Shown: positions 27,477-52,230 of the stretch, piece after piece | How positions within the stretch are numbered: the stretch's first letter is position 1 | Layout: each line of letters starts with the position of its first letter | Source: Paludibacter sp. | GTDB taxonomy: Bacteria > Bacteroidota > Bacteroidia > Bacteroidales > Paludibacteraceae | Assembly (NCBI GenBank): GCA_037142715.1 | Contig: JBAXAD010000003.1 | Coordinates: forward strand, 738-64,737 | Reading direction: 5' to 3' | Length of the DNA stretch: 64,000 nucleotides | Program-made: the position numbers and the translations under genes | The notes under the pieces: generated by a model | What the model was told of the DNA's origin: nothing | The model's database searches: none | What the model saw: the letters and a program-made list of their open reading frames with translations, nothing else

Positions 27477-30146
27477 ATGAAAAACAAGATTTTACCCTCC
27501 CAATTACCCGAAAAACAAAATGATGAATCTCAAACGCCTGTAATAGAAAATGACATTTTACCACCAAAATCCGAAGTGAAAATATCAAAGAACCTTGTGC
27601 CTGATTTTCTGATTGTGGCAATTGGTGCATCGGCTGGCGGATTGGAAGCATTGGAATCTTTTTTCGAAAATATGCCTCTCAACAATAACATGGCATTCGT
27701 TGTGATTCAGCATCTTGACCCTACCCACAATGGTATTATGCCCGAACTGATGCAACGGTTTACGGCCATGAAGGTTATGCAAGCTACCGATCAACTCAAA
27801 GTGAAACCGAACTGCGTTTATATAATTCCACCCAACAAAAGTATGTCGATTCTGAAAGATACTTTGTATCTTTTTGAGCCTATTGAAACACGTGGACTGC
27901 GCCTTCCAATTGATTATTTTTTCCGTTCGTTGGCACAAGACAGGCTGGATAAGAGTGTTGGCATTATTCTTTCGGGTATGGGCTCCGATGGTACCCTTGG
28001 CATTAAAGCCATAAAAGAAAAAAATGGTGTGGTTCTGGTTCAGGATCCAAGTACGGCAAAATTTGACAGTATGCCACGTTCGGCCATCGAATCGGTTATA
28101 GTGGACATAGTAGCTCCAGCCAATCAGCTGCCATTAAAGTTGATAGAATTTATGAAGTTTATTCCAACAATCAATTTAGATGCAGAAGTGGAGGTGAAAA
28201 ATAAAAGTAATATCGATAAAATTATAATTCTGCTGCGTGAACAGTCGGGACATGATTTTTCGATGTATAAAAAAAACACCCTGTTTCGTCGCATCGAGAG
28301 GCGCAAAGGAGTTCATCAAATTGACCGACTTGAAAATTATGTCCGCTTTTTGCAAGAAAATCCCAAGGAGGTAGAAATTCTTTTCAAAGAACTGCTGATA
28401 GGCGTTACAAGTTTTTTTAGGGACACTGCCGTGTGGGAAAAATTAGAAGCAACCATCTTTCCTGATTTATTGAACGAAATGCCTGATGGTGCTGTGATGC
28501 GTGCTTGGGTGGCTGGTTGTTCTACCGGCGAAGAGGCATATTCACTAGCAATTTTATTCAAAGAATCGGTGGAAAAGCTTAAAAACCGCAGGAATATATC
28601 ATTACAGATTTTTGCTTCCGATTTGGACAGCGATGCCATTGAAATAGCCAGAAAAGGCATTTTCACTAAAAATATAGTTTCCGATGTTTCGCCCGAACGT
28701 CTTAATCGTTTTTTTATTGAAGAAGCTGGCTGCTTCAGGGTTACGAATGCCATACGTGAAATGGTGGTTTTTGCCCCACAAAATGTGATTAAAGATCCGC
28801 CATTTACAAAACTCGACATTTTGACTTGTCGCAATATGTTGATTTACATTGAACCAGAATTACAGAAGAAAATTATTACTTTATTTCATTACAGCCTCAA
28901 TCCAGGTGGAATAATGGTGCTTGGCACTGCCGAAACGCTTGGAAATATGAACATTGGATTTGAGGAAATTGATGGAAGATTGAAATTATTTAAACGAAGC
29001 GTAAATTCAATTTCTCCGGAACTGATTGATTTTCCAAGCTCTTTTCATAGACCAAAAATGGTTTCAAAAGAAAATAATAATACTTCAAAATCCATTGATA
29101 ATATTCAATCCATTGCCGATCAGATACTTCTTCAGAGGTTTACTCCTTCCAGTGTTTTGGTAAATTCCAAAGGCGACATTTTATACATTACTGGTCGCAC
29201 GGGAAATTATTTGGAATTGGTGGCTGGCAAAGCCAACTGGAATATTCACGTTATGGCCAGGGAAGGACTGCGACAGGAACTTCCGGTTGCGTTCCGCAAG
29301 GCCATGCAAAATTATGATCAAGTATTATTGTCAAATCTGAAAATTGGAATTAATGGTGGCAGTGTGTTAGTTAATGTGACAATTCAACGCATTGAAACTC
29401 CAGATTCTATAAAAGGCATGATTATGTTGGTGTTTAATGAAATTCCTTTTGTGCCCGAAATAGTGGATGCTGCAAAAAAACTGAGTAAACACAATTCTAG
29501 TAGGAATAAGGAACTTGAAATTGAACTTCAGCGAAGTTATGAGGATTTGCAAAGTACACGCGAGGAAATGCAAACATCGCAAGAAGAGTTAAAATCTACC
29601 AATGAAGAATTGCAATCTACCAATGAAGAATTGCAATCGACCAACGAAGAGCTGACCACTTCCAAAGAAGAAATGCAGAGCTTGAATGAAGAATTACAAA
29701 CGGTAAATTCAGAACTGCAAACCCGTGTTACCGATTTTATGCAGGCAAGTAACGACATGAAAAACTTGCTCAACAGTACTGAAATTGCCACTTTATTTTT
29801 GGATAAGGACTTAAATATAAGGCGTTTTACCGATTCGGCTACCACCATTTTTAAATTGAGAAATGCCGATGTGGGACGACCATATACCGACCTTGTTTCC
29901 GATTTGCAATACCCCGAAATGGATAAACACGCCCGTCAGGTAATAAGAACATTAACTACTATTGAAACGCCAATAAAAACCAATGATGGGAGATGGTACA
30001 ATGTTCGCATAATGCCATATCGTACACTGGATGACCGCATTGACGGGCTTATAATTACTTTTATGGATATTACATTTGCCAAAAAAATGGAAAATGAATT
30101 GAAGGAAGCCAAAGAGGAACTTTTGAAAAACGACAAAAAGATTTAA
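27477..30146 (+). CDS. CheB methylesterase-CheR methyltransferase-PAS-coiled-coil-PAS fusion
   Basis: CheB triad motifs GASAGG, IQHL, SGMGSDG; CheR motifs GVTSFFRD, WVAGCSTGEEAYSLA, FASDLD, CRNMLIY; (STNEELQ)n heptads; PAS_10-like C-terminus; no kinase domain. Confidence 0.95.
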   Translation: MKNKILPSQLPEKQNDESQTPVIENDILPPKSEVKISKNLVPDFLIVAIGASAGGLEALESFFENMPLNNNMAFVVIQHLDPTHNGIMPELMQRFTAMKVMQATDQLKVKPNCVYIIPPNKSMSILKDTLYLFEPIETRGLRLPIDYFFRSLAQDRLDKSVGIILSGMGSDGTLGIKAIKEKNGVVLVQDPSTAKFDSMPRSAIESVIVDIVAPANQLPLKLIEFMKFIPTINLDAEVEVKNKSNIDKIIILLREQSGHDFSMYKKNTLFRRIERRKGVHQIDRLENYVRFLQENPKEVEILFKELLIGVTSFFRDTAVWEKLEATIFPDLLNEMPDGAVMRAWVAGCSTGEEAYSLAILFKESVEKLKNRRNISLQIFASDLDSDAIEIARKGIFTKNIVSDVSPERLNRFFIEEAGCFRVTNAIREMVVFAPQNVIKDPPFTKLDILTCRNMLIYIEPELQKKIITLFHYSLNPGGIMVLGTAETLGNMNIGFEEIDGRLKLFKRSVNSISPELIDFPSSFHRPKMVSKENNNTSKSIDNIQSIADQILLQRFTPSSVLVNSKGDILYITGRTGNYLELVAGKANWNIHVMAREGLRQELPVAFRKAMQNYDQVLLSNLKIGINGGSVLVNVTIQRIETPDSIKGMIMLVFNEIPFVPEIVDAAKKLSKHNSSRNKELEIELQRSYEDLQSTREEMQTSQEELKSTNEELQSTNEELQSTNEELTTSKEEMQSLNEELQTVNSELQTRVTDFMQASNDMKNLLNSTEIATLFLDKDLNIRRFTDSATTIFKLRNADVGRPYTDLVSDLQYPEMDKHARQVIRTLTTIETPIKTNDGRWYNVRIMPYRTLDDRIDGLIITFMDITFAKKMENELKEAKEELLKNDKKI

Positions 30147-30151
30147 CATAT

Positions 30152-30422
30152 CCGCTTATCCGCTTTTTTGCGGTTTGTTGGATGATTGGAAGATAAGAGG
30201 AAAACCAAGAGTGCGTTAAAGACAACCTAACGCGTCCAACCGAAAAAAAATCGGTTGGACGCTACTAAACCGCTCAACCGCTTTCTCAGCGGTTTGTCGG
30301 ATGAATGGAAGATAAGGTAGAACCCGAAAGCATTAAAGACAACCTAACGCGTCAAACCGAAAAAAATCGGTTGGACGCTACTGAAACCTAACACTTCCAA
30401 CCGAAAAAAATCGGTTGGTAGC
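30152..30422. repeat. Left REP/BIME-like array: B-A-B-A-A hairpins
   Basis: REP-B at 30152 and 30270; REP-A (GCGTC(C/A)AACCG-A7/8-TCGGTTGGACGC) at 30232, 30349 and degenerate at 30393. A ~118-bp unit is duplicated. Confidence 0.92.
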
Positions 30423-30440
30423 TATAAAAAATAAGATATT

Positions 30441-31025
30441 ATGTATTTTACAAAAGACTGTACATACCATGTTTACAACCGGAGTAATGGACTTTTATTT
30501 CATAATAGGGAGAATTACATTTTCTTTCTGAAAAAGATTAGAATTCATATTCTACCTTTTGCGGATATTTTGTCTTATTGTTTAATGCCCAATCATTTTC
30601 ATTTAATACTGACTGCAAAAGCAGAAGGTGTTGTTTTTTTAGAAAATGAAAGATTGAAAGATTTACAACAATTATCACGGGGAATAGGAACGGTTTTGAG
30701 TTCATATACTCAAGCTGTAAACAAGCAGCAAGGCAATAAAGGATGTCTTTTTGCACACAAAACAAAAGCAAAGATTCTGAATGATGCAAAAGATGATTAT
30801 GCGTTAAATTGTTATATGTATGTACATCAAAATCCTTATCTAGCAAAATTGGTTGATAAAATTGAGGACTGGGAATTTTCCTCTTTCCTAGATTATATTG
30901 GGAGAAGAAACGGAACTTTAGTTAATAAACAAATGGGGATTGATATTTTTCAAGTACCCAAAAATCAGGTTTATGAACTTACCTATATAATGATGCAGGA
31001 CAAGTTCGATGAAGATTTTAATTGA
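30441..31025 (+). CDS. REP-associated tyrosine transposase (RAYT, HUH/Y1 family)
   Basis: YHVYNR, YCLMPNHFHLIL (HUH), YVHQNP (candidate catalytic Tyr) and WEFSSF motifs. Confidence 0.9.
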   Translation: MYFTKDCTYHVYNRSNGLLFHNRENYIFFLKKIRIHILPFADILSYCLMPNHFHLILTAKAEGVVFLENERLKDLQQLSRGIGTVLSSYTQAVNKQQGNKGCLFAHKTKAKILNDAKDDYALNCYMYVHQNPYLAKLVDKIEDWEFSSFLDYIGRRNGTLVNKQMGIDIFQVPKNQVYELTYIMMQDKFDEDFN

Positions 31026-31033
31026 TGCTGGAA

Positions 31034-31190
31034 ATCCGCATAACCGCTTTTTTTTGCGGTTTGTCGGATGAATTGTTAGAAGGATGCTGGAGGCTACTGA
31101 AACCTAACGCGTCAAACCGAAAAAAATCGGTTGGACGCTACTGAAACTAACGCGTCAAACCGAAAAAATCGGTTGTACGCTACTGAAAAC
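31034..31190. repeat. Right REP array: B-A-A hairpins
   Basis: ATCCGCATAACCGC-T-run-GCGGTTTGTCGGAT at 31034, then REP-A at 31109 and 31152, each followed by TACTGAAA. Confidence 0.92.
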
Positions 31191-31213
31191 AAAATTACTT
31201 ATTCACTAAATTT

Positions 31214-34200
31214 ATGGAAACTAATAACATCAAAATTCTGGCTATCGATGATAATCTTGAAAATTTAATGATTATTAAATCATTGATTTTAAAGGAATTT
31301 CCAAAGGCATTGTTTTTAACTGCTCCTAATGGAAAAAAAGGATTGGAAATAGCTACAGCTCAATACCCTGATGTTATTTTGATGGACATTCTTATGCCCG
31401 ATATGGACGGTTTTGAAGTGTGTGAGTTTCTTAATGCAGACCCTATACTAGTTGATATTCCGGTGGCAATTGTTACAAATGTAAAAGGGACTAACGAAAT
31501 ACGGATACGTGCCATGGAAGTGGGAGCTACAGCTTATTTGGAGAAACCTGTTGACATGAAGGAGCTTGCGATGCAGATACGTGCCATGTTGAAAATTAAA
31601 ATTGCAAATGTTGCTAGACGTACTGAAAATGAGCGACTTGAAGTTTTGGTGGAAGAACGAACCCGCGAATTACTGGAAACCCACAAAGCAACGCTACATT
31701 TATTGGAAGAGTTGAAAAACGAGAATGAAGCTCGCCGAAATAGCGAAGAAGCATTGCGGTTAAATGAGGAGAAGTATCGATTCATGACCGAAAATTCCAG
31801 CGATGTCATCTGGCATTTAGACAGCAATTATTGTTGTGATTATATCAGTCCAGCCGATGAGCGAATGCGTGGTTTTAGTAAAGAAGAAATGTTAGGCAAA
31901 TCGATATTGTCGATACTTAAACCAGAAGGTTATGAACAGGTTAAGCAAGTAACTGCACAGCGGTTGAAAGACGAAAAAAACGGGATTTTTAGCAATACCT
32001 ATCAATATGAATTTGAACAAATCTGCAAAGATGGTAGTTGGATCTGGATTGAAACAAATTCTACAGCTCACTTCAATGAAGCTGGAGAACATGTTGGATT
32101 TCATGGAGTTACGCGTAATATTTCTGAGAGAAAAGCAGCGCAGGCGGCTATACGTGAAAGCGAGGAGAAATACCGAATTATAACCGAACAATCGCCCATT
32201 GCCATTGAGTTGTATAATTCAGATGGCAAACTTGCAAATGCAAACAAAGCGTGCTTGGAGTTGTTTGGAATAATTAACCCTGAAAATATTAAAGGATTTT
32301 CATTGTTTGATGATCCAAATATTTCTGAGTTTCACAAAAATGAATTGAAGCAAGGTAGATCAATTAACTATCAAGATGAATTCGATTTTGATAAAGTAAA
32401 AGAATTGAACCTTTATAAAACAAGCAAATCAGGAAAAATTTACCTCGACACAATTATTACCCCAATAACAAAAGAAGGAAAAAATGAAACTGAATACTTA
32501 GTTCAAATACAAGACATTACAGAAAGAATACAAGTTGAATCTCAACTAAAAAAATTAAGTAATCACTATCAGAAAATTATTGAAAATGCACCCGACGGAA
32601 TTGTGTTAATTAATACCAACGGTGAATTCAAATACATTAGCACATCGGCCAAGCGAATGTTAGGGTATGATATTACGGAAGAAATTAACTCAACTCCCTA
32701 TGACTTAACACACCCTGACGATTTACCAAACGTGCTATTTACAATTGATAAACTATTACATGACTTCACTTTATGTCCGTTATTGCAATATCGTTTTTTG
32801 AATAAAGTGGGTGTTTGGATCTGGATTGAAAGTAAATTCACTGTTCAAATTGATGATTCAAATGAGGTTTTTATAATAATTAATTTTCGAGATATAACCG
32901 AACAAAGAAAAGCCGATGAGGAGCTTTCTCAAACCCGACTAAATTACGAAACATTTTTCAATACGATTGATGATTTTCTATTTGTACTTGATGTGCAGGG
33001 AAATATAATTCACACCAATAATACGGTAAATAACAGGTTATTGTATTCGAAAGAAGAGCTTTTAGGAAAATCGGTATTGGAAGTTAATCCCGCAGACCGA
33101 CGCGAAGAAGCTGGCAAAATAGTAGGTGAAATGCTCAGTGGACTTGCCGAAACTTGCCCTGTGCCAATTGTCACAAAATCGGGAGTACAAATACCCGTAG
33201 AAACTAGGGTTACGCATGGATTTTGGAACGGAGAGCCAGTGATTTTTGGCGTTACCAAAGATGTTTCGAAAGTGAAATTGTCCGAAGAAAAATTCTCCAA
33301 AGTGTTTCATGTCAATCCTTCGGCATGTACATTATCCGAAATGGATAATTATAAATATGTAGAAGTAAATGAGGCATTTTACAAGCTGTTTGGTTTTGAT
33401 AAGGACGAAGTTATTGGAAAATCGGCTATAGAGTTGGGAATTATTAGTCCTGAATCTTATCATAAAAATATAAACTCAGGAGATGCATTTGGTAATGTAT
33501 ATAATATAGAAAGCATTGGGAAAACTAAAACCGGAGATGAAAAACAGGTTTTAATTTCTTCCGAAAACATAAATGTACAAGATAAAAGCTACCGTTTCAC
33601 TTTAATTCAGGACATTACCGATCGGAAATTAGCAGAAGAATCACTCAGGGAAAGGGAAGGGAAATATCGGTTTATGTTTGCAAATAATCCACAACCGATG
33701 TTTATTTATGATTTGGAAACTCTCGCATTTTTGGAAGTAAACCAATCAGCCATAAACCATTATGGATATTCGAGAGAGGAATTTCTTGCCATGTCAATAA
33801 AAGACATTCGCCCAGAAGAAGATTTACCCGCATTTTTGGAAGACGTTGAAAAAGCAAAGCTAACCTTCATAAGTACTTCCAATGATTGGAAACACATAAA
33901 GAAAAACGGAGAGTTGATTTACGTACAAGTTACTGCACTTTCAATTATCTCGAATGGTAGAAATGCGCGTCACATAATGGTGAATGACATTACCGACCGC
34001 AAAAATGCCGAAAAAGAGTTGCGCGAAAGTGAGTCTAAATACTTCAACCTATATTCACTTATTCGATCAATGAGCGATACCATGCCCGACATGCTATGGG
34101 CCAAGGATTTGAATAATAACTATATATTTACAAACAAGGCATTTAGCAAAATAATACTTAATGCTACTGATACTTCTGAAGCAATTGGTAAAAACGATAT

Positions 34201-37200
34201 TTTCTTTGCCTTGCGAGAACGTGAAACCCACATTGAAAATCCTGAATGGCATACTTTTGGCGATATTTGCGCCAATACAGATGTCCTTACATTGCAAGAA
34301 ATGAAACCCATGCGGTTTGATGAATATGGAAATGTAAAAGGCAAATTTATATATTTGGATGTTGATAAAGCGCCATTGTATAATAGCAATAACGAACTAA
34401 TTGGAGTTGTGGGTTCTGGACGTGATGTAACACAAAAGAAGGAAGTAGAAAAAAATCTCAGGCATCTAGCACGCCTTTATGCATTGCTAAGTGAAATAAA
34501 TAGAGCCATTGTTAAGCATAAAAATCAGGACGAACTTTTTGATACTATATGTAAAGTAGCCATAGAATTCGGTCAATTTCGGATGGCATGGTTTGGCAAA
34601 TACGATGAAGATATATGTAAGATTATTCCCATAATATCAGCAGGTTACAGCGATGGTTATTTGGATTTACTACGTCTTGACCCCAACTCCAAAACCAATG
34701 GGAAAGGACCTACCGGCAGGGCATTTCATGAAGGGGAAATTGTATTTTGTAACGATATTGCCAATGACCCAATGATGCAACCATGGAAAGATCAGGCACT
34801 TAAACGTGGTTATCAATCATCGTTTGCAGCACCTATTTTGCGAGGCGGAAAACCTTACGGAACTTTTACGCTTTATGCCTCTGAAGTGGGGTTCTTTAAT
34901 AATGATGAACAAAAACTGTTGGCAGAAATTGGACAAAACATTTCTTATGCCATCGATGCCATCGATTCTGAATTGGAGCGCATACAAATTCAGCAAGATT
35001 TGGAAATTAGTGAGCTAAAATACAGAGAGTTGATGGAAAACTCGCCCGAAGGAATCACTATATATGTTGACGGAAAAGTGGCATACATCAACAAGGAAGC
35101 CATGCGATTGATGAGGGCAAAAGATAAGAACAACTTATTGGGCAAAACAATTGTAGATTTTATTCATCCCGACAATCAAGCCTTGGTATTGGAGCGCATG
35201 CAATATGTGGCAATGGCACCTTTGTATGCCATTTTGCCATCGGTGGAAGAAAAATATATCAGACTTGATGGTACAGAAGTGTATGTGGAAATTAAAGTGA
35301 TGCCCATTCTTTATGATGGAAAACCAGCCATACAATTGTCAGGTCATGACATTTCGGATCGGAAAAATGCTGAAATGGCCCTTGCAGATACCATGACGGA
35401 ATTAAAAACCATATACGATAACTCGCCTGTAATGATGTGCGTGGTGGACGAAAAGGCTGACATACAATTTGCTAATCAGGCTTTTGCCCATTTATCTGAA
35501 ACTATTAAGAGCGAATTGAAGGGCGAACAAGTGGGCGATGTGATGGGATGTGTTCAGGCTTTAGAGAACAATGCTGGATGTGGTTTTGGAAAACTATGTG
35601 GCAATTGTGGATTAAGAGGCGCTATGTTGAATACACTTAAAACTGGCAAAGGACATAACAATATTGAGCATAAATCTACTTTGGTGCGCGATGGAATACA
35701 TGTAGATGTTTTCCTTCTAGCTTCTACTGCGTTAATACTTACAGGTAAAACCAAGCGTCTTCTTTTGTGTTTGGTAGACATAACAAATCGTAAACAAGCC
35801 GAAGAAGCCCTTCAAAAAAGTGAAGAGAAGTACCGATTGCTTGCAGAAAATATGCATGATGGAATTTTATCATTTGGGGCTGATAACAAAATTAATTATG
35901 TGTCAGCATCTTATATTAAACAACTTGGTTATTCAGAGAAGACGCAGCTTGATAAGGGCGTAACTGATATATTTTCAATCATTCATCCTGAAGATCGTGA
36001 TGAAGTGTTTGCAAATATATTTGATGCGATAGAAAAAAAGAAACCTCAATTGGTTTATTCTTATAGAGTTAAACATTTTTTAGGACATTATATTTGGCGT
36101 GAAGATAGTACAAAATTCAATTACGATGACGATGGAAATTATGCTGGCGCTTATTTAGTCTGTCGTGATATTACTATTCGAAAACAAACACAAGAAGCAT
36201 TACAACTAAGTGAAATTCATTTGAATAACTTGTTTGAGTTTTCGCCAATTTCTATTTGGGAAGAAGATTTTTCTGAGATTAAAAATTATTTTGACGAATT
36301 GAAAGGTCAAGGAATAGCTGATTTTAGAGAGTTTTTGACTAGTAATCCCCACGAGGTAGAAAAGCTAGCAATGCTTATAAAAGTTGCGAAAGTGAATGAA
36401 ACGAGCGTTAAAATTTTTGGTGCTGATACCAAAGAAGAGCTAATTTCTAGCTTGCCCTTTGCCTTTAGCCACATCAATGTGCCTGTGTTTCTGGAAGAGT
36501 TTGTAGCATTGGCCGAAGGAAAAATCCATTTTGAGGGCGAAACGCAAATTGATACTTTGAAGGGAGAAAAGAGGAACTTTTGGTTGAACCTCACCGTGAT
36601 GCCCGACTATGAAGACACGTTGTCTAAAGTGCTGGTTACGTTTATTGACATTACTGAGCGGAAGCAGGCGGAAGATGCACTTCAGAAAAGTGAAATGTTT
36701 TTAAGGACATTTATCGACAATACTCCTTTTGAAATTTGGGCCAGAGATGTCAATAATATTGGAATACTGGAAAACAAAAAAGTGGTGGACCATTATGGAT
36801 CTATATTAGGCAAACAGCCGAATGAACTTTCAATACAAGATAGGAAACTGGGGAAAACTTGGGAAAGTCAAAACGTTCGGGTTTTTAAAGGTGAAATGAT
36901 AGATGAAGTTGTTGAGTTTAAGGAAAACAAAGAATTGTTATTCTATCAAAAAATCAGTTTTCCTATTATCAACAAGTCAGAAATCATAGGTATTGCGGGC
37001 TTTAATATTGACATCACCGAACGGAAGCGTGCCGATGAAGCATTAAGAATATCGCAAGTTCAATTGAAGCAATTTGCAGCTCATCTTCAGGATGTGCGTG
37101 AAGAAGAAAAGAAAATACTGGCCCGTGAAATTCACGATGAATTAGGTCAAATTCTGGTAGCTCTTAAAATTGATTTAGGATTATTGAAACAAAAAGTAGT

Positions 37201-40440: not shown

Positions 40441-43400
40441 ATGGACATTCAATTTAACGACATCTTTATTCTTGAAGAAATTCAACAATTGCAGGATATG
40501 TTTTCAGATGCTACGGGAGTGGCTTCTATTATCACACAGCCTGACGGTACATTAATTACCAAACCTAGTAATTTTACCCGTTTGTGTAATGATATTATTC
40601 GCAATACCCCAAAAGGTTGTGCCAATTGTATCAAATCCGATGCAACAATTGGCGGGTTAAATTCCTGTCAAGTTGTTGTAAAACATTGTTTAAGTGCTGG
40701 GCTTTGGGATGCTGGCGTTCCCATTACCGTAGGTGGAAATCATATAGCCAATTGGCTGATTGGGCAGGTGCAGGCTGAAGATGTAGACTTGGAAAAAATG
40801 AAAGCTTATGCCGATGAAATTGGTGTTGATAGAAATGAATTTTTATCCGCTTTGGAAGAGGTGCCTAAAATGACTGAAAACAGGTTCAAAAAAGTGGCCG
40901 AAATGCTTCATGTTTTTGTCATTGATTTGTCAGAAAAAGCATACAACAATTTGCAATTGAAAAATGAAATTGCAAAACGTGAAGAAGCAAATTTGAAATT
41001 GCAAAAAAGTCAGGAATCACTTTATATCACCCTTCATTCTATTGGTGACGGTGTAATTTCTACCGACAGAAATGGGTTGATAAACGAAATGAATCCTGTG
41101 GCAGAGCAGCTTTGTGGATGGAAATTGAAGGATGCAAAAGGAAAACCGTTGACTCAGGTTTTTGAAATAGTGAATGCTCAAACCAGATTGCCAGTTGAAA
41201 ACCCTGTGGATAAAGTACTGGAAAATGGCCAAATTGTGGGGCTTGCCAATCATACAGTGCTCATTTCCAAAGATAAAACAGAATATCAAATTGCCGATAG
41301 TGCCGCGCCCATCAAAAATTGTGAAGGTGAAATTACAGGCATTGTGTTGGTGTTTTCGGATGTGACTGAAAAATATGAATCGGAAGAATCACAAAAGATA
41401 TCGGATAAAAGATACAGCGACTTGCTAAACCATCTGGAAGCTGGAGTGGTGGTTCATGGCCCCGATACAGCCATCTTTTCAAGCAATCCAAGAGCATCGG
41501 AATTGTTGGGATTGACTGAAATGCAAATGTTCGGGAAAATGGCAATGCATCCCGATTGGAAGTTTCTTGCTCCAAACAGTAGCCATTTAGCACTAGAAGA
41601 TTATCCGGTAAATTTGATTGCACGCACTAAAAAACCGATTATTGATTATGTGATTGGGATTAACCGTCCAGTGACCAATGACCTTGTATGGGTAATGGTG
41701 AATGGCTTTCCCATGTTAAACCCGACGGGGGAAATTTCTGAAATTATAATAAGTTTTATCGACATTACCCAGCGTACAATAACAGATGAAGCATTGATTA
41801 AAAGTCGTGAAGATTTTAAGGAACTATATGATAATGCGCCAATTGGGTACCATGAACTTGACAATGAGGGCAGAATAATTCGGATAAATCAGACTGAATT
41901 AAAAATGTTGGGATATACTGAAAATGAAGTATTGGGACAGTATGGTTGGGAATTTCTTGAAGATAAAGAATTGTCGCAAAATAGAATCCAAGGAAAATTG
42001 GACGGAACCATTAACCATGGCGATAGTGTTGAACGCCAGTTTCTACGAAAAGATGGAACTAAGCTAATTTTCCTTAGCAATGATAAAATACTGAAGGATC
42101 AAAATGACATAATAATAGGTATACGCACTACGGTACAGGACATTACCAAAAGAAAATATGCTGAAGAAGCTTTAGAAAATGAAAAGCATTTGTTAAGAAC
42201 TCTGATTGATAATATGCCAGATGCCATTTACACCAAAGATTTGGAAAGCCGCAAAACCCTTGCAAATAAGGCTGATGTGAAAAACTTGGGTGCAAATTTG
42301 GAACTAGAAGTATTGGGGAAAACCGATTTTGATATTTTTCCAAAAAAAATGGCTGAAGGTTTTTTTGATGATGATCAAAGTGTGTTGAAAAAAGGTGAAC
42401 CAATACTCAATAGAGAAGAGTATTTAATGGATGATAATGGTGAAAAACGTTGGTTACTAACTTCAAAGCTTCCACTTTTTAATAATAATCACCAGGTTAT
42501 TGGTTTGGTTGGTATTGGTCGTGACATTACCATCAGACGCAAAGCAGAACTTGCTTTGCGCAAAAGCGAAAGTTTTCTCAAAGAAACACAAATGATTGCC
42601 AAAGTGGGTAGCTATTCATTAGACGTTAAATCAGGAATTTGGGTAAGCTCAGAGGTGTTGGACAAAGTATTTGGTATTGAGGCCAATTATGAAAAAACCT
42701 TGGAAAGCTGGAAGCGTATTATACATCCCGAATGGCAGGAAGTAATGATTGATTACTTTATAAATGAAGTAATTGGCAAGAAAACCCAGTTTAATAAAGA
42801 ATATAAAATTATCAGTATTAATGATGGTGTAGAAAAATGGGTGCATGGAATTGGTAGGTTAATTTTTGGTGATAACAACGAAATCATATCCATGATTGGT
42901 TCCATTCAGGATATTACCGAACTTAAACAGACAGCATTGGCATTGGAAGATCAACTGAGAATGCAACAAGTATTGATGAATATATCATCAGAATATATCA
43001 ATTTGCCCATCAATAAAATTGAAGCTGCCATTCATGTTTCTTTACGCAATTTGGCTGAATATGTGGAAGCAGATAGGGCGTATGTGTTTGATTATAACCT
43101 AGATAGTCAAAATTCAAACAATACTTATGAGTGGTGTGCCGAAGGAATTAATGCTCAAATTGCTTCAATGAAAGCTATTCCTTTAAATGAAATGTTGGGG
43201 TTTGAAGCTCATCAAAAAGGAGAATTAGTGGTCATTCCTAATGTTTCTGACTTGCATGATGGTAAATTAAAGCAATGGTTGCATAATAGAAATTTGAAAA
43301 GTTTTATTACTATACCAATGATGCTCAATGGTATAACCATTGGATTTGTAGGATTCGATTCTTTTAAAAAGCAACATTCTTATACCGAACACGAAAAATA

Positions 43401-45444: not shown

Positions 45445-47874
45445 ATGAAAAACGAAATTACCGATGTTGATACTACTCTTCGCCAAAAGGCAGAAAAGTT
45501 ATTAAAAAAGAAAGCTACAAAAAAAGTAGAAACGCAACTCTCAGAAGCCGATTCGTTAAAATTAATCCACGAATTGGATGTGTATCAAATAGAGCTTGAT
45601 ATGCAAACCGATGAGTTTCAGCAATCGAAATTGTATGATGCAGAAAGGTTAGCACTCATACACCAATTGGAAGCTCACCATGTAGAGCTTGAGATGCAAA
45701 ACCATGAACTCAGCTTGGCTCGTGTAAAGGCTGAAAAAATTGCAAAAAATTATTCTACTTTATATGATTTTGCGCCAACTGGTTATTTTACACTTTCCGT
45801 TGATGGTGAGATACTTGAACTCAATCTTTGTGGAGCGCAAATGCTTGGTAAAGAGCGAAGTAATTTATTGAATAGCAGATTTGCATTTTTTGTTTCCAAC
45901 AACACCAAACCATTTTTTCAACTTTTTCTGGATAAAGTATTTATTACCAATAAAACTGAAACCTGCGAAATTACAATCAAAACCGATGGCAATCCCTCTA
46001 TATATGCACATGTAACTGGATTGATTTCTGAAAATAAAGACCAATGCCTTCTTACTGTTGTTGATATTACCAAAAGGAAAAAAGCTGAAGAAGAACTGTT
46101 ACTTAAGAATGTCATTTTTGATTCATCCATTGCTGCTAATAGTATAGCCGATATTGATGGTATAATTATAGAAGTAAACAATTCTTTTTACCTCGGTTGG
46201 GGTTATAAAAGTAAGTATGAAGTTATTGGAAAGTCTATAGCTAGTTTTTTTGCTTATAGCTCTGAAGCCGAGCAGATTATGAATTCCTTGAATGAAACCG
46301 GACAATGGGAAGGCGAATTTATTGCCAAGCGGGTTGACAATTCACACTTCTTTGCTTATGCTACTGCTACAGTTGTTAGAGATAAGTATGATAAAATAAT
46401 TGGTTATCAATCATCTGTTATAGATAATACGAATCAAAAAATTGCTGAGGAAGCTTTAAAAGTGAGCGAAGAAAAATTCCGTGGCATTTTTGAAAACACC
46501 AAGGATATTTTCTTTCAAATTAGTTTAGACGGAAAAATCATAGATATTAGCCCATCGGTAAAGTCATTAACAAATATCTCTAGAGAGGAATTTATTGGTA
46601 AGTCTTTCATAGATTCACATAATAATCCTCTGAAAACAAAATTGCTTTTCGATTCCGTTATTAACAATGTGGATTTAACAGACTTTGAAATTGAAGTTAA
46701 ATCCAAAAATGGTCATTCAAAGTTTTTATCCATAAATGCCATATTAATTGTTGACCAATTAGGAAACAAAAAACATATTGATGGATCAATAAGAGATGTC
46801 ACTGAACGAAAACTGGCCGAGGATGCATTGACAGAAAGTGAGGAGAATTATCGGTTCATGTTTGCAAATAATCCGCAACCGATGTGGATTTATGATTTGG
46901 AAACCCTTGTGATATTGGAGGTTAACCAATCAGCAATTTGCCATTATGGTTATTCAAGAGAAGAATTTCTGTCAATGACATTAAAAGATTTACGACCAAA
47001 AGAGGATTTTCCAGCACTTATGAGGGATTTGGAATTGGCCAAAGCCGACAATAACACGGTTACCCAATGGCGGCACATTAAGAAAAATAAAGAGTCAATA
47101 TTTGTAGAAGTCATTGCTCATTCGGTCAAATATAACGGAAGAAATGCACGTCATGTTTTGATAAACGACATTACCGAGCGCAAGCAAGTGGAGTTCAAAT
47201 TGGTAAATACGCAGGAAGAGCTGAAGAAATTTGCAGCGCATCTTCAAAATATCCGCGAGGAAGAAAGAATAATGTTGGCTCGCGATATTCATGACGAATT
47301 GGCTCAAATTCTTATTGCCATAAAAATGGATATGGGTTTAATAAAACAAAAATTATCAAGAGGACTAAATAGTATTTGTAATGAGGAACTTATGGAGAAT
47401 TTTAACCATGTATTTGGTCTTGTCGACAACACAATTCATACCTCAAGAAAAATAATGTCAGGACTAAGGTCAGAAATGCTTGAATTGCTTGGATTGATTG
47501 AAACCATTAAAATATATACCAAAGAGTATGAAGGCAGGCATTATATAAAATGCAATATGATGATTGAAAGCAATGAAGTAGAATTTGATCCACATAAATC
47601 TGTCACTTTATTAAGGATATATCAGGAAATATTAACAAATGTAGTTAAGCATGCAGAGGCTACTGAGTTAAATATTTATCTGACAGTTAAATCAAAAATA
47701 CTTATCATGGAAGTAAAAGACAATGGTAGGGGTTTTGATAAAACCACGGAAAACAAACCCAATACTTATGGGATAATTGGAATGAAAGAAAGGACTTTTT
47801 TGTTGGATGGAAAATTAAGTATTGAAACTGAACCAGGAAAAGGAACTACCGTAAAAGTGGAAATTCCATATTAG
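45445..47874 (+). CDS. HK4: N-terminal ELEMQ coiled coil-4 PAS-HisKA_3-HATPase
   Basis: LRQKAEKLL...LIHELDVYQIELDMQ...ELEMQNHEL, PAS units, ARDIHDELAQ and DNGRGF. Confidence 0.92.
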   Translation: MKNEITDVDTTLRQKAEKLLKKKATKKVETQLSEADSLKLIHELDVYQIELDMQTDEFQQSKLYDAERLALIHQLEAHHVELEMQNHELSLARVKAEKIAKNYSTLYDFAPTGYFTLSVDGEILELNLCGAQMLGKERSNLLNSRFAFFVSNNTKPFFQLFLDKVFITNKTETCEITIKTDGNPSIYAHVTGLISENKDQCLLTVVDITKRKKAEEELLLKNVIFDSSIAANSIADIDGIIIEVNNSFYLGWGYKSKYEVIGKSIASFFAYSSEAEQIMNSLNETGQWEGEFIAKRVDNSHFFAYATATVVRDKYDKIIGYQSSVIDNTNQKIAEEALKVSEEKFRGIFENTKDIFFQISLDGKIIDISPSVKSLTNISREEFIGKSFIDSHNNPLKTKLLFDSVINNVDLTDFEIEVKSKNGHSKFLSINAILIVDQLGNKKHIDGSIRDVTERKLAEDALTESEENYRFMFANNPQPMWIYDLETLVILEVNQSAICHYGYSREEFLSMTLKDLRPKEDFPALMRDLELAKADNNTVTQWRHIKKNKESIFVEVIAHSVKYNGRNARHVLINDITERKQVEFKLVNTQEELKKFAAHLQNIREEERIMLARDIHDELAQILIAIKMDMGLIKQKLSRGLNSICNEELMENFNHVFGLVDNTIHTSRKIMSGLRSEMLELLGLIETIKIYTKEYEGRHYIKCNMMIESNEVEFDPHKSVTLLRIYQEILTNVVKHAEATELNIYLTVKSKILIMEVKDNGRGFDKTTENKPNTYGIIGMKERTFLLDGKLSIETEPGKGTTVKVEIPY

Positions 47875-47894: not shown

Positions 47895-47912
47895 CGGGAA
47901 TTAGGCAAGTTC
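47895..47912. repeat. Partial family C element
   Basis: GGGAATTAGGCAAGTTCA matches the inner left arm of the copies at 3243 and 45308. Confidence 0.5.
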
Positions 47913-48003
47913 ACTTTACAAGTTTCGCGTCCAATCGTTTTTTTTTACGGTTTGAAGCATAAGTAAGCAGAAATAAAAGCGGTTTGACACAATAAAACGA
48001 ATT

Positions 48004-50481
48004 ATGAATAAAGAATTTAAAAAAATGTTTCCAATTCTGCGACAAAAAGCAGAAGAGTTGTTAAAGGCTGCTCCGGCTAAAAACACCGTTGCCCAGCTTT
48101 CTGAAGCCGAAGCTTTGAAACTTTTGCACGAATTGGAAGTATATGAAATTGAACTGGAAATGCAAACCAATGAGTTTGCAATTGCAAATGAGCTGTATTC
48201 CAATAACTTGAAATTGATGCAAGAACAGGCGATAAAAAATATTGAGTTGGAGATGCAGAAGGAAGCACTTGTGGAAGCAAAGTTGGAATTGTCGGAAACA
48301 GCAAAGCAATATGCTGAATTTTTTGACAATGCTGACACAGGTTTTTTTACACTAAGCCACGAAGGAGATATTTTGGAGTTAAATCTATACGGCGCACAGT
48401 TAATTGGAAAACCAAAAAACCATTTAATAAATGCACGTTTCGGCTTTTTTGTGTCTGAGTCTACAAAGTAGATTTTCAATAAGTTTATAGAGCAAATTTT
48501 TCAAAATTCCGAAAAGAAAACTTGCGAAGTTGAACTGATTACACCAGAAGGGATTTTAAGTATTTGTCAATTGATAGGCATTGCTTCAGAAAACTCAGTT
48601 AAATGTTTGTTGACAGTAAAAGATATTTCGCAACAGAAAAAATTTGAAGCAGCTTTTATTGCGGATAATTCTCGACTGGAATTGGCTATGGAGGCTGGAA
48701 AAATTGCATGGTGGGAAATGGAAACTCCTACTGGAAATATTACTTGCGACAACAGAAAAACAGCAATGCTTGGTTTTTCACCCGAAAATTTCACCCATTA
48801 TACCCATTATACAGCTTTGGTGCATCCCGAAGATGTGGAAAGAACAATGGAGGCAATGCGTCAACATATTTATGGAACCGCCAAAAAATATGAAGCTGAA
48901 TATAGAATTCGCACAGCTTCAGGTACTTATATTTGGACTTTGGATATGGGTTCAATTACTAAAAGAGACGAACAGGGTAAACCGTTGGTGGTTGCAGGAC
49001 TGGTAATAGATATAACCGAAAGAAAATTACAAGAAGCCATTAAAGGAGATGCGCTTCATCGCCTCCAAAAAATTGCGAGCTGTGTGCCAGGTGTAGTTTA
49101 TCAGTATAAATTACGACCAGACGGAACTTCATGTTTTCCATTTTCTAGTGAAGCATTGGCAAGCATTTATCGTGTTAATCCAAAAGATGTAATCGAAGAT
49201 GCATCCTCAGTTTTTAAAAATATTCACCCTGATGATCTTGAAGAAGTTACCGATACCATTCAGTATTCGGCAAAAAATTTAACCCAATGGCAACATGAAT
49301 ATCGGGTGAAATTTGATGATGGAACCGTTCGTCATCTTTTTGGAGATTCCATACCTCAACTTGAAGAAGATGGATCTGTGCTTTGGCATGGATATATTTC
49401 GGATATAACTGAAAGAAAGTTATTTGAACAGAAGCAAAGAGAATCAGACCAGCAATTTCGCGATATGTTTGAAAAAAATACAGCGGTAAAGTTAGTTGTA
49501 GATCCTGAAAGTGGCTCGATAATTAATGCAAATCTAGCTGCCGGAAAATTCTACGGCTATTCAATAAAACAGCTTGAAAACATGAATATTGATGAGATAA
49601 ATATACTCGATTTTACTCAAATTAGAAACAAAATGAGTATTGCCATCGATGGGAATTCTACTTGTTTTTATTTTCAACATCGATTGGCGTCTGGCGAAGT
49701 TCGTGATGTGGAAGTTTATTCTGGTCCTATTCAACTTGGCGGGAGAACAGTTCTTAATTCGATTGTACATGACATTACTGTACGGAAAAGAGCTGAAGAG
49801 GCTTTGAGATTGTCGCAAGAAGAACTGAAAAGGTTTGCCTCTCATTTACAACACATTCACGAGGAGGAAAGAGTATTGTTGGCACGCGAAATCCATGATG
49901 AACTTGCCCAGACTTTGATTGCTTTGAAAATTGACATGGGAATGTTGAAATCAAAAGTATTAAAAGATGCTGAAAATGTAGATGCAAACGATATATTGAT
50001 TAAATTTGACCAGCTTTTCGGATTGGTGAACAATACCATTAAAACCGCAGGCAGTATTATGACTGGCCTGAGACCGGAAGCTTTATATTTACTTGGGTTA
50101 GTAGAGGCTATATCGTTGTATGTCAATAAATTCAAATCCAAATACCAAATTGATTGTCAGTTTGAAAACTCAGTTTTTGAGCATGATATTAATCCACAGC
50201 AATCAATAGCGTTATTTCGGATTCTGCAAGAAGCACTCGAGAATGTGGCTCAACATGCAAAAGCTTCAAAGGTAGTTATCTATTTAAGTTTAGATAAGAA
50301 CAATTTAGTGATGGTAATTAATGATAATGGAATAGGTTTCAATAAATGTATGCATTTAAAATCAGAGACTTATGGAATTATTGGGATGAAAGAAAGAGCC
50401 CTATTTGTGAATGGGATTTTTTCTATTACAGCTATTTTGGGTCAAGGTACAACCATTAAAGTGGAAATACCACAACTATAA
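48004..50481 (+). pseudogene. HK5: ELEMQ coiled coil-4 PAS-HisKA_3-HATPase, interrupted by one in-frame TAG at 48469-48471
   Basis: Track ORFs 48004-48471 and 48571-50481 are in the same frame. Readthrough gives ...FVSESTK*IFNKFIEQIF...CLLTVKDI, colinear with HK4 ...FVSNNTKPFFQLFLDKVF...CLLTVVDI. H-box AREIHDELAQ. Confidence 0.85.
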
Positions 50482-50547
50482 AATTCACCCAGCTGTGTCT
50501 GAAATGGGATTATGGTAAATTAATAATTTAACTTCAAAAAAAATAAA

Positions 50548-51174
50548 ATGATTAAAATATTTCTTGTAGATGATCATGAAATCATGCGGAAATCATTAAA
50601 CTTGATTTTAAAAGACGAATCAGATATGATTATTGTTGGTGAAGCTTCCAATGGTTCCGAATTACTCGAAAAAATCAAAGAGATTCAATGTGATGTTTTA
50701 TTGTTAGATTTGAATATGCCCGGAATCGATGGAATTGAGCTAATTTCTGAGCTAATAAAACTTAAGCCAAAGCTTAAAATACTTGTCCTTAGCATACAAC
50801 CGGAAAAAAAATACGCACTTAAAGCCTTGAATGCAGGCGCATCTGGCTATATAAGTAAAGATACCGCACTGAATGAATTAGTGTATGCTTTAAGAAAAAT
50901 GGTAGCCAATGGAAGATATCTTAGTGCTAATTTTACTGAGCTTTTGGCATTTGGAGATATTAAATCTAATGTATTTGTCCCAAAACAACTTACTGATATT
51001 GAAACCAAAATAATGATTTCACTGGCTTCTGGAAAAAACGTTAGTGATATTGCTGAAAATATGTCTCTCAAAATCAGTTCAATATTATCACACAGACTTC
51101 GAATTTTCAAGAATCTTAATGTCAAAAACAATACCGAGTTAGCTCATTACGCTTTTGAAAATAAGCTTATGTAG
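50548..51174 (+). CDS. NarL/FixJ family response regulator 1 (REC + LuxR HTH)
   Basis: VDDHEI, LLDLNMPG, GASGYISKD and C-terminal LuxR-type HTH. Confidence 0.93.
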   Translation: MIKIFLVDDHEIMRKSLNLILKDESDMIIVGEASNGSELLEKIKEIQCDVLLLDLNMPGIDGIELISELIKLKPKLKILVLSIQPEKKYALKALNAGASGYISKDTALNELVYALRKMVANGRYLSANFTELLAFGDIKSNVFVPKQLTDIETKIMISLASGKNVSDIAENMSLKISSILSHRLRIFKNLNVKNNTELAHYAFENKLM

Positions 51175-51362
51175 CAAATTAGTAATTTTTTGTCAGATTT
51201 TTTTTGAAGTTCAGCACACAGATTATTCTGGACGAATTTGTTAACTGAAAGGTTTTTTTCTATATACTATTAAATCAGTACTTTGAAAAAAGCTTGATGC
51301 TATAAATTTAGTCAGCATTCCATTTTTTAAAATCTTTATTTTTTTGTAGCAATATATCTACA

Positions 51363-51370
51363 TATCTTTG
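51363..51370 (+). promoter_or_regulatory. Candidate sigma-A -7 element for response regulator 2
   Basis: TATCTTTG, immediately preceded by the inverted repeat TGTAG-N8-CTACA (51345-51362). Confidence 0.4.
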
Positions 51371-51591
51371 ATTAGCTAATGATTATATGAAAATTATTAC
51401 TACTTTTACATATTGTTTTTTTTATAGCAATTTTGGAATTTAAAAGATTAATCATTTTCATCTGATAAGTGTATTTTGCTTTTCGGGATTATTTTCAAAA
51501 AAGTATAAAAAAGGCTGATTTATAGCAGATTAACAATAAAATAAAAACATATTTTTCTCTGGAATTCCCGAGTATATTTAAAATAAGACTT

Positions 51592-52230
51592 ATGATAAAA
51601 GTATTCATTGTAGACGATCATGAAATCATTCGTGAAGGATTAAAGAAAATTCTAAAAGAAGAATCAGATTTAATAGTAGTAGGTGAAGCCCAAAATGGAG
51701 CTGATGTACTTGAGAAAATGCAAGCACTTGATTTTGAGTGTGATGTGATGGTACTTGATATGAATATGCCAGGAAAAAGTGGCATTGAACTTCTCACCGA
51801 CCTCAAAAACATGAAACCACAGCTTCACATTTTGGTGTTAAGCATACATCCCGAAGACAAGTTTGCTTTGCGCACTCTAAAGGCAGGTGCTTCTGGTTAT
51901 CTATGCAAAGATACCGCTCTGGAAGAGCTGGTGGTTGCCATTCGGAAAATCTATTCCAAAGGCAGGTATTTAAGCACCACTTTAGCCGAACAATTGGCAT
52001 TTGATATTATGCCTGTAACCAATTCATTACCACACGAACAACTTTCAAATCGCGAATTGGAAATTATGTTTATGCTTGTTTCGGGCAAAAAGGTAAAAGA
52101 CATTGCAGCCGATTTGGGTTTAAGTATAAGTACCATATTTACTTATCGTGTAAGGATTTTTGAGAAGTTGAAAATCAAAAATAATGTTGAATTGACACAT
52201 TATGCTATGATCAATAAACTGATTGAGTAG
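51592..52230 (+). CDS. NarL/FixJ family response regulator 2 (REC + LuxR HTH)
   Basis: VDDHEIIREG, LDMNMPG, GASGYLCKD and LSNRELEI...LSISTIFTYRVRIFEKL. Confidence 0.95.
   Translation: MIKVFIVDDHEIIREGLKKILKEESDLIVVGEAQNGADVLEKMQALDFECDVMVLDMNMPGKSGIELLTDLKNMKPQLHILVLSIHPEDKFALRTLKAGASGYLCKDTALEELVVAIRKIYSKGRYLSTTLAEQLAFDIMPVTNSLPHEQLSNRELEIMFMLVSGKKVKDIAADLGLSISTIFTYRVRIFEKLKIKNNVELTHYAMINKLIE

What the first reader, a model, noticed from the sequence alone, without database searches (positions are those of the whole stretch)
27477..52230. Chemoreceptor-free CheB/CheR signalling island: five tandem paralogous HisKA_3 kinases converging on two NarL regulators
Seen: cheB-cheR-PAS fusion, then five co-oriented kinases with closely similar kinase cores (AR(E/D)IHDEL(G/A)Q.L.A.K.D.G...KQK) but different inputs, then two NarL/LuxR regulators. 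The inputs are REC+~12 PAS+GAF, NMT1-type binding protein, PocR+8 PAS+GAF, and two coiled-coil+PAS proteins. No MCP, CheA, CheW or CheY lies in the window. Established: HisKA_3 kinases pair with NarL-type regulators; CheR/CheB methylate and demethylate glutamates in heptad helices; CheB-CheR fusions outside chemotaxis clusters are known but functionally uncharacterised. Inference: a multi-kinase integrator with about 30 PAS domains controls transcription rather than motility and has a methylation-based adaptation module. This is my best candidate for an undescribed system in the window.
Basis: partly seen in the sequence, partly recalled or inferred. Interest (0 to 1): 0.85.

Follow-up and report, generated by a model that had tools for sequence, protein, structure and literature searches.

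The report
CheB-CheR fusion with helix-tagged client kinases
A fused chemotaxis-type methylating/demethylating enzyme sits beside five related sensor kinases and two regulators, and comparison with other genomes, many of which lack chemoreceptors, suggests it works on a conserved helix system carried by itself and by two of these kinases.

Summary
The window holds a CheB-CheR-PAS_10 fusion, five HisKA_3 kinases with 48-61% identical cores, and two NarL-type regulators.

Three corrections apply:
- HK5 is one 825-codon frame broken by an in-frame TAG at 48469-48471.
- A RAYT-like gene with REP hairpins separates cheBR from HK1.
- The genome is not chemoreceptor-free. Another contig carries a complete Wsp-like cluster with its own MCP, CheA, CheW, CheR and CheB.

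CheBR's conserved partner is a module, not "the kinases". The module is a near-invariant helix (KLIHELEVHQIELEMQNEEL) leading into a PAS domain.
- In 63 of 70 testable loci from several phyla, a gene starting with this module directly follows cheBR.
- Here the module heads only HK4, HK5 and four kinases elsewhere. HK1-3 lack it.
- About 35 of 43 genomes with this CheBR type show no MCP.
- CheBR's own helix has seven near-invariant Glu-Glu heptads. Five match a receptor methylation-site half-motif that I quote from memory.

Best reading: a chemoreceptor-independent methylation module tunes helix-tagged sensors. HK1-3 join only through the shared regulators RR1 and RR2. No biochemistry supports this.

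Earlier agents of this scan reported the same CheBR-helix pair in other genomes. I found no paper describing it.

The parts
27477..30146 (+). cheBR: 889-aa fusion of CheB methylesterase (aa 45-225), CheR_N+CheR (aa 246-500), a PAS-like middle domain (aa 543-656), a 94-residue helix (aa 674-767), PAS_10 (aa 771-864) and a C-terminal helix. It has no receiver domain.
   Evidence: Pfam. PDB sequence matches to CheR and CheB. AlphaFold model. S52, H79 and D171 and the CheR motifs are invariant in 44 homologues.
29559..29726 (+). Glu-Glu heptad array REEMQTSQEELKSTNEELQSTNEELQSTNEELTTSKEEMQSLNEELQTVNSELQ inside the long helix. This is the candidate built-in methyl-accepting helix.
   Evidence: Most positions from 696 to 744 are 0.9-0.99 conserved over 79 sequences from several phyla. 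The mean over aa 676-745 is 0.82, against 0.72 for the catalytic domains. It holds five [EQ][EQ]xx[ASTG][ASTG] sites at 7-residue spacing, the only such cluster in the genome's ORFs. Three of the heptads are encoded by a 21-bp tandem repeat at 29593-29650.
30147..31213 (+). Inserted mobile-element-like spacer: a RAYT-like gene (30441-31025) flanked by five REP-like hairpins CAACCGAAAAAAATCGGTTG.
   Evidence: NCBIfam REP_Tyr_transpos E 7e-10, below its cut-off. Repeat families D1-D5. In other genomes this position is taken by the partner gene.
31214..37726 (+). HK1: REC + about 13 PAS + GAF + HisKA_3 + HATPase_c. It is cytoplasmic and has no partner module.
37817..40366 (+). HK2: signal/TM segment + periplasmic NMT1-type binding domain + TM + 2 PAS + HisKA_3 kinase. 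No partner module.
   Evidence: NMT1 sensor kinases also lie downstream of cheBR-module pairs in three other Bacteroidia assemblies.
40441..45270 (+). HK3: PocR + about 8 PAS + GAF + HisKA_3 kinase. No partner module.
45445..47874 (+). HK4: predicted CheBR client. The N-terminal module is aa 1-215 (45445-46089): helix 6-24, one unbroken helix 34-108 holding two tandem ELEMQ-type repeats, then a PAS fold 113-207. Three more PAS domains and a HisKA_3 kinase follow.
   Evidence: Module profile 241 bits. AlphaFold pLDDT 89.6. Foldseek returns PAS structures. Pfam.
48004..50481 (+). HK5: paralogue of HK4 with the same module. It is one frame of 825 codons interrupted by TAG at 48469-48471, inside the module's PAS domain. 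It is a pseudogene, a sequencing error or a split gene.
   Evidence: Module match with '1 TAG'.
50548..51174 (+). RR1: REC + GerE (NarL/FixJ-type) regulator.
   Evidence: It is 56% identical to RR2. The next closest regulator in the genome is about 30-33% identical.
51592..52230 (+). RR2: REC + GerE regulator, paralogue of RR1.
   Evidence: It is 41% identical to the regulator that follows a cheBR / module-HisKA_3 kinase pair in locus L066.

Best explanation
The locus holds two things that are joined only in part.

(1) A chemoreceptor-independent methylation module.
- CheBR is an active-looking methyltransferase/methylesterase fusion. Its C-terminal half is a long helix of Glu-Glu heptads running into a PAS_10 domain.
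- Its conserved partners are proteins that begin with a short version of the same kind of helix (HEL EVHQ IEL EMQN EEL) running into a PAS domain. Both helices have a polar a position, Leu at d, and an invariant Glu at c.
- I propose that the two helix-PAS units associate.
- I propose that CheR and CheB add and remove methyl groups on the exposed glutamates of the CheBR helix, and possibly on the three invariant glutamates of the partner helix.
- I propose that the methylation level resets the signalling state of the partner, as it does for chemoreceptors.
- In this genome the predicted clients are HK4, HK5 (if intact) and four kinases on contigs C6, C9, C15 and C37.

(2) A multi-kinase network.
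- HK1-HK5 and three orphan kinases elsewhere share one HisKA_3 core class.
- Only two matching regulators exist, RR1 and RR2. Many inputs (a receiver, NMT1, PocR, GAF, about 30 PAS) probably converge on transcription.
- HK1-HK3 would feel CheBR only indirectly, through the shared regulators.

Shown here: domain content, gene-pair conservation, co-distribution, absence of MCPs in most carrier genomes, and sequence conservation of both helices.
Inferred: helix-helix association, the identity of the methylated residues, the effect on kinase activity, and phosphotransfer to RR1/RR2.
For: Gene pair:
- A module gene starts right after cheBR, often with overlapping stop and start, in 4 related genomes.
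- The same holds in 12 further neighbourhoods from the phylum survey.
- It holds in 63 of 70 testable named loci from Bacteroidota, Desulfobacterota, Chlorobiaceae, Pseudomonadota, Verrucomicrobiota and one Methanomicrobiaceae archaeon.

The partner's output varies while the module stays.

Co-distribution in 301 genomes at least 90% complete:
- 42 of 43 genomes with a strong module match hold a CheBR fusion.
- Presence and absence agree within at least six families.

No MCP:
- MCPsignal was found in 0 of 63 genomes of family f36 and 0 of 22 of f23, although 34 and 10 of them carry CheBR.

Enzyme competence:
- The CheB Ser-His-Asp triad and the CheR motifs are invariant.

Helices:
- The CheBR heptads are the best conserved part of the protein and form a unique cluster of methylation-site-like motifs.
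- The partner helix has E44, E51 and E58 at 97% conservation or more, spaced by 7 residues, in register with the CheBR heptads.
- Both are single long helices entering a PAS fold.
- Kinase-fused CheBR proteins keep the heptads and lack the partner.

Network:
- RR1 and RR2 are the only close regulators.
- Locus L066 is a minimal cheBR / module-HisKA_3 kinase / NarL regulator operon.
Against: - No biochemical or expression data exist.
- In this window cheBR is 15 kb from HK4, separated by a RAYT element and three kinases, so co-transcription is doubtful.
- Promoter and terminator scans gave counts equal to shuffled sequence.
- HK4 and HK5 helices do not fit the [EQ][EQ]xx[ASTG][ASTG] half-motif.
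- HK4's second repeat reads NHEL instead of NEEL.
- The profile alignment between the two helix types is not statistically significant.
- The genome has an MCP that could in principle be a substrate.
- One genome (G213) has a module gene without CheBR.
- Kin are not independent, and family f36 dominates the counts.
Confidence: 0.55

Rival explanations
1. CheBR is a spare adaptation enzyme for the genome's single chemoreceptor in the Wsp-like cluster on contig C4. Its place beside the kinases is incidental.
For: An MCP with a 4HB and a HAMP domain exists in the genome. CheR and CheB domains are known to act on MCPs.
Against: That cluster has its own CheR (with TPR) and its own CheB (with receiver). 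About 35 of 43 genomes with this CheBR type show no MCPsignal domain at all. The conserved neighbour is the helix-PAS module, never an MCP.
Confidence: 0.07
2. One reading: all five kinases are direct methylation targets of CheBR and together form one adapting integrator.
For: The genes are co-oriented with short gaps of 66-188 nt between kinases. Multi-kinase arrays also lie downstream of cheBR-module pairs in three other Bacteroidia assemblies.
Against: HK1-HK3 have neither the partner helix nor any cluster of methylation-like sites. Across genomes only the module is conserved next to cheBR. A RAYT/REP insertion separates cheBR from HK1.
Confidence: 0.1
3. CheBR and the module proteins bind each other through their helices, but the enzyme's substrate is something else, or one or both catalytic activities serve only as a sensor or scaffold. 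The Glu-Glu heptads would then be a binding surface rather than a methyl acceptor.
For: Both helices share an unusual pattern of polar a and Leu d positions, which suits mutual pairing. The partner helix does not match the receptor methylation consensus.
Against: The catalytic residues of both enzymes are invariant over 44 homologues from several phyla. Conservation of exposed Glu-Glu, Ser and Thr positions at 0.97-0.99 is more than a coiled-coil interface usually needs. No other conserved neighbour is seen.
Confidence: 0.2
4. The array is an ordinary lineage-specific expansion of PAS kinases. Its link to cheBR is a leftover: HK5 is dead and cheBR has been displaced by a mobile element, so the system is decaying.
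For: There is an in-frame TAG in HK5 and a RAYT/REP insertion at the place where the partner gene normally starts. Close relatives have only a small stand-alone partner.
Against: cheBR, HK4 and four other module kinases have intact frames with conserved catalytic motifs. The TAG may be an assembly error in a 432-contig draft.
Confidence: 0.08

Closest known systems
Chemoreceptor adaptation by CheR and CheB (E. coli/Salmonella Tar and Tsr; my own knowledge)
   Same: The enzyme domains are the same, with intact catalytic residues. The candidate acceptor is a long helix with heptad-spaced Glu-Glu pairs followed by small residues, like receptor methylation helices. Several predicted clients share one enzyme.
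   Different: No MCPsignal domain, CheA or CheW is involved. The two enzymes are fused, and CheB has no receiver domain. The acceptor helix is part of the enzyme polypeptide. The outputs are two-component kinases and other domains, not a flagellar motor.
Database family 'CheB/CheR fusion protein' (cheBR, KEGG K13924 as I recall; Pfam architecture CheB_methylest-CheR_N-CheR-PAS_10), including the kinase-fused forms
   Same: The window protein has exactly this architecture. Kinase-fused relatives keep the same Glu-Glu heptads.
   Different: The window type lacks a kinase and instead has a separate, conserved helix-PAS partner gene. In the papers I could search, cheBR appears only in gene tallies (PMC8396549, PMC8067831). 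I found no functional study.
NarX/NarQ with NarL/NarP (two HisKA_3 kinases cross-talking to two NarL-type regulators; my own knowledge)
   Same: The kinases are HisKA_3 and the regulators are REC-GerE paralogues. More kinases than regulators share one specificity class.
   Different: There are eight kinases of one core class for two regulators. The sensors are cytoplasmic and PAS-rich. Nothing suggests nitrate sensing.
Multi-kinase networks such as KinA-E to Spo0F in Bacillus or GacS/RetS/LadS in Pseudomonas (my own knowledge)
   Same: Several sensor kinases with different inputs feed a common regulator.
   Different: Here convergence is only inferred from near-identical His helices. A methylation enzyme is attached to a subset of the kinases.
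Wsp-type (alternative cellular function) chemosensory clusters
   Same: The cluster on contig C4 has the Wsp gene order: CheW, CheR with TPR, CheW, MCP, CheA-REC, CheB.
   Different: That cluster is separate from the window. Its last gene is a REC-HisKA kinase, not a diguanylate cyclase. It is a neighbour in the genome and not the system under study.

Membership tests
CheB methylesterase | CheB_methylest domain above the curated cut-off | tested here: met
   186 bits against a cut-off of 24. PDB CheB chains match aa 42-225.
CheB methylesterase | Ser-His-Asp catalytic triad | tested here: met
   S52 (GASAGG), H79 (QHLDP) and D171 (GMGSDG) are invariant in 44 homologues. Equating them with the Salmonella triad rests on my own knowledge.
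CheB methylesterase | N-terminal receiver domain that gates the esterase | tested here: not met
   Only about 40 disordered residues precede the esterase.
CheR methyltransferase | CheR_N and CheR SAM-binding domains above cut-off, with conserved motifs | tested here: met
   47 and 172 bits. The FFRD, GCSTGEE and CRN..IY motifs contain invariant columns.
Methyl-accepting chemotaxis protein | MCPsignal (kinase-control) domain | tested here: not met
   No PF00015 match in any protein of the region. The genome's only match is on contig C4.
Methyl-accepting chemotaxis protein | Methylation-site consensus [EQ][EQ]xx[ASTG][ASTG] in a long helix (motif quoted from memory) | tested here: inconclusive
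   The CheBR helix has 5 sites at heptad spacing. The HK4 and HK5 helices have none. Actual methylation cannot be tested here.
HisKA_3 histidine kinases | HisKA_3 and HATPase_c domains with the phospho-accepting His | tested here: met
   All five kinases are above cut-off. The His in EIHDEL is aligned in all of them.
NarL/FixJ response regulators | Receiver with an acceptor Asp, plus a GerE helix-turn-helix | tested here: met
   Both domains are above cut-off in RR1 and RR2. The Asp in LLLDLNMP and MVLDMNMP was read.
CheBR-partner helix-PAS module (defined here) | N-terminal LRxKAEE, then KLIHELEVHQIELEMQNEEL, then a PAS fold | tested here: met
   HK4 scores 241 bits and HK5 155 bits with one TAG. 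HK1-HK3 have no match.
CheBR-partner helix-PAS module (defined here) | Gene directly downstream of cheBR | tested here: not met
   In the window HK4 starts 15.3 kb after the cheBR stop. Elsewhere 63 of 70 loci have the module gene immediately downstream.
REP-associated tyrosine transposase (RAYT) | Family profile above cut-off, HUH motif, and flanking REP hairpins | tested here: inconclusive
   NF047646 scores 38.9 bits against a cut-off of 80. Pfam gives no hit. The motif MPNHFHLIL and five hairpins are present.

The most novel reading that the evidence does not exclude
CheBR, its Glu-Glu heptad helix and the helix-PAS partner form a widespread, chemoreceptor-independent adaptation system. 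It would give methylation 'memory' to ordinary two-component kinases, transcription factors and other outputs. In this genome one CheBR would serve six sensor kinases of at least two core classes, much as one CheR/CheB pair serves many chemoreceptors.
Probability: 0.4. Interest if true: 0.85.

Novelty: new variant of a known kind. Interest (0 to 1): 0.62.

Why it matters
CheB-CheR fusions are annotated in many genomes but have no known substrate.

The comparative data give a concrete, testable pair: the enzyme's own Glu-Glu helix, and an N-terminal helix-PAS tag. The tag's profile matches about 17,000 representative protein clusters at E of 1e-30 or better. That count may include multi-PAS proteins without the helix.

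If methylation of these helices sets kinase output, adaptation by reversible glutamate methylation would not be limited to chemotaxis arrays. It would also apply to transcriptional signalling in non-motile bacteria.

This window adds a case where the tagged kinases are embedded in a larger kinase family that shares two regulators.

Tried and rejected
- Literature. Six full-text searches for CheBR, fusion wording and the helix motifs found only gene tallies and no functional study. One search failed on syntax.
- Promoters and terminators. The scans were uninformative, with counts equal to shuffled sequence.
- Island test. rpoN and ychF flank the region, but they are not neighbours in relatives. 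No simple insertion between them can be claimed. Base composition is not unusual.
- Middle domain of CheBR. Profile-profile comparison with PAS_10 or with the module was not significant. Only the AlphaFold order of helices and strands suggests a PAS-like fold.
- Partner helix in kinase-fused CheBR. The search was negative.
- HK2 orthologues. None is close (at most about 58% identity), and no conserved copy of the whole array exists.
- No complex prediction tool was on hand, so helix-helix pairing was not modelled.


Full report
**What is in the window**

- CheBR is an 889-aa protein with CheB_methylest, CheR_N, CheR, a coiled coil and PAS_10.
- Five co-oriented HisKA_3 kinases follow, then two REC-GerE regulators.
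- HK1 has a receiver, many PAS domains and a GAF domain.
- HK2 has a periplasmic NMT1-type domain between a signal/TM segment and a TM segment.
- HK3 has PocR, PAS and GAF domains.
- The last 235 residues of the kinases are 48-61% identical. The helix around the phospho-accepting His is almost the same in all five.

Three details differ from the finding.
- The 155-aa ORF at 48004-48471 and HK5 are one frame, broken by a single TAG at 48469-48471 in the middle of a PAS domain.
- The 1.07-kb gap between cheBR and HK1 holds a 194-aa gene with an HUH-type motif. It gives a sub-threshold match to REP-associated tyrosine transposases and is flanked by five copies of a hairpin repeat.
- The flanks are rpoN (minus strand) and ychF, with no compositional break.

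**The genome is not chemoreceptor-free**

Searching the whole assembly (4.26 Mb, 432 contigs, 92.9% complete) gave one MCPsignal match, three CheW matches, and a second CheR and a second CheB, all on contig C4. The gene order there is Wsp-like:
- CheW
- CheR with a TPR tail
- CheW
- an MCP with 4HB and HAMP domains
- CheA with a receiver
- CheB with a receiver
- a REC-HisKA kinase

That receptor therefore has its own dedicated methylation enzymes.

**What CheBR is conserved with**

Four related genomes have a 58-61% identical CheBR. In each, the next gene, overlapping or abutting the cheBR stop, encodes a small protein of 184-250 aa. It starts with LLHELQVHQIELEMQNEEL followed by a divergent PAS domain.

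The same module forms the N-terminus of HK4 and of the broken HK5, each with two tandem helix repeats. It also heads four kinases on contigs C6, C9, C15 and C37. HK1-HK3 lack it.

I built a profile of the module (A1) and searched 301 genomes of the phylum that are at least 90% complete.
- 43 genomes have a strong match, and 42 of them also hold a CheB-CheR fusion. The exception is G213.
- The coordinates show the module gene directly downstream of cheBR in at least 35 genomes. Twelve neighbourhoods were checked in detail.
- Presence and absence agree within several families, not just between them.

A scan of named genomes returned 80 CheBR loci at 44-74% identity. They come from:
- Bacteroidota
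- Desulfobacterota
- Chlorobiaceae
- Nitrospirota
- Verrucomicrobiota
- Elusimicrobiales
- Pseudomonadota
- one Methanomicrobiaceae archaeon

In 63 of the 70 loci with enough downstream sequence, a strong module match begins 85-280 nt after the cheBR stop on the same strand. Three of the seven misses are my own frame errors.

The partner's output varies:
- a minimal HisKA kinase
- hybrid kinases
- a HisKA_3 kinase
- a winged-helix DNA-binding domain
- nothing at all

Locus L066 reads cheBR, module-HisKA_3 kinase, NarL-type regulator. It looks like a minimal form of the window's system. The module, not a particular output, is therefore the conserved counterpart of CheBR.

**Chemoreceptors are not needed**

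Over the same 301 genomes, MCPsignal was found in 0 of 63 genomes of family f36 and 0 of 22 of family f23. Family f23 includes Flavobacterium sinopsychrotolerans, identified by matching contig lengths. Yet 34 and 10 of these genomes carry CheBR. About 35 of the 43 genomes with the window's CheBR type have no detectable MCP. For this particular genome it remains formally possible.

**The two helices**

In an alignment of 79 CheBR sequences, most positions of the stretch REEMQTSQEELKSTNEELQSTNEELQSTNEELTTSKEEMQSLNEELQTVN are 0.9-0.99 conserved. It is better conserved than the catalytic domains.
- It holds five matches to [EQ][EQ]xx[ASTG][ASTG] at exact 7-residue spacing.
- I recall this as the C-terminal half of the receptor methylation consensus.
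- The motif occurs 0.37 times per 1000 residues in the genome's ORFs, and no other ORF has four within 50 residues.

Kinase-fused CheBR relatives keep the heptads.

The partner helix, in 73 sequences, has E44, L45, V47, H48, E51, L52, E53, Q55, E58 and L59 at 86-100% conservation. Read in register with the CheBR heptads (alignment not significant on its own), both have a polar residue (N or Q) at position a, Leu at d, and an invariant Glu at c. The HK4 and HK5 helices do not match the half-motif.

AlphaFold models show the same plan in both proteins.
- CheBR has one unbroken helix, 674-767, entering PAS_10. It is preceded by a domain with a PAS-like order of elements (mean pLDDT 75, and the relative placement of domains is unreliable).
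- HK4 has one unbroken helix, 34-108, entering a PAS fold (pLDDT 89.6; PAS matches).

The CheB triad and the CheR motifs are invariant. CheB has no receiver domain.

**The kinase family and its regulators**

The genome has eight kinases of the HK1-5 core class: five in the window, and three on C14, C35 and C198 with no adjacent regulator. RR1 and RR2 are 56% identical to each other, and the next regulator is 33% identical at most. The module kinases on C6, C9 and C37 belong to a second HisKA_3 core class with their own adjacent regulators. The C15 protein's core gave no match to the window's class and was not typed. The module has thus spread across kinase classes, as an input domain would.

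Three other Bacteroidia assemblies show cheBR, a module kinase and then further sensor kinases, including NMT1-type ones, but with HisKA cores. Kinase arrays beside this pair therefore recur, though not this array.

**Reading**

The best-supported explanation is a methylation module that acts on helix-tagged sensors, here HK4, HK5 and four others. It sits beside, and is partly embedded in, a multi-kinase family that probably converges on RR1 and RR2.

The steps from gene pairing to mechanism are inferences:
- association of the two helices
- which glutamates are modified
- the effect on kinase activity

The window departs from the usual layout. The partner position after cheBR is taken by a RAYT/REP element and by HK1-HK3, and one client is interrupted by a stop codon.

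**Relation to earlier notes and to the literature**

Notes on this window had already pointed to the ELEMQ helices and the STNEELQ heptads. Follow-up agents reported the same CheBR-helix gene pair in other genomes. Those are unchecked AI notes. The counts given here were made here.

In the searchable papers, cheBR appears only in tallies of chemotaxis genes. No paper holds the helix motifs. Subscription journals are largely missing from that library, so prior description cannot be excluded.

Noticed in passing
window 30147-31213: RAYT-like gene (194 aa, motif MPNHFHLIL) flanked by five REP-like hairpins CAACCGAAAAAAATCGGTTG, within 117-bp repeated units. A second, 31% identical copy of the gene lies on contig C40.
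   Followed up: partly
window 48469-48471: A single in-frame TAG splits HK5 inside its first PAS domain. The rest of the kinase looks intact. It could be a real nonsense mutation or a draft-assembly error, and reads could not be consulted.
   Followed up: partly
G000 contig C4, 19-28 kb (locus L009 6139-15004): Complete Wsp-like chemosensory cluster whose final gene is a REC-HisKA-HATPase kinase instead of a diguanylate cyclase.
   Followed up: partly
loci L022 8176-8853, L024 4157-4843, L026 2524-4103: Several small stand-alone partner proteins end in a second conserved motif, F.GRE.RMVELKKEIN.LL...G, of unknown meaning.
   Followed up: no
G000 contig C198 (635-aa ORF, truncated by the contig end): A kinase of the HK1-5 core class starts with a CheBR-heptad-like stretch, LKTNEALIKENQELQLVNNAL, which gave a weak match to the CheBR coiled coil.
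   Followed up: no
table, G032:C192 (2660-aa ORF): A giant protein in a related family carries at least four repeats of a coiled coil plus PAS_10-like unit without CheB or CheR. The helix-PAS_10 unit therefore also exists outside the fusion.
   Followed up: no
relatives: In several genus members rpoN lies within 0.1-1.6 kb of a contig end. This hints that the repeat-rich sensor genes next to rpoN break assemblies there too.
   Followed up: no
window 23448-24464: A RhuM-family gene (Pfam Virulence_RhuM, 328 bits) lies two genes upstream of rpoN on the minus strand.
   Followed up: no
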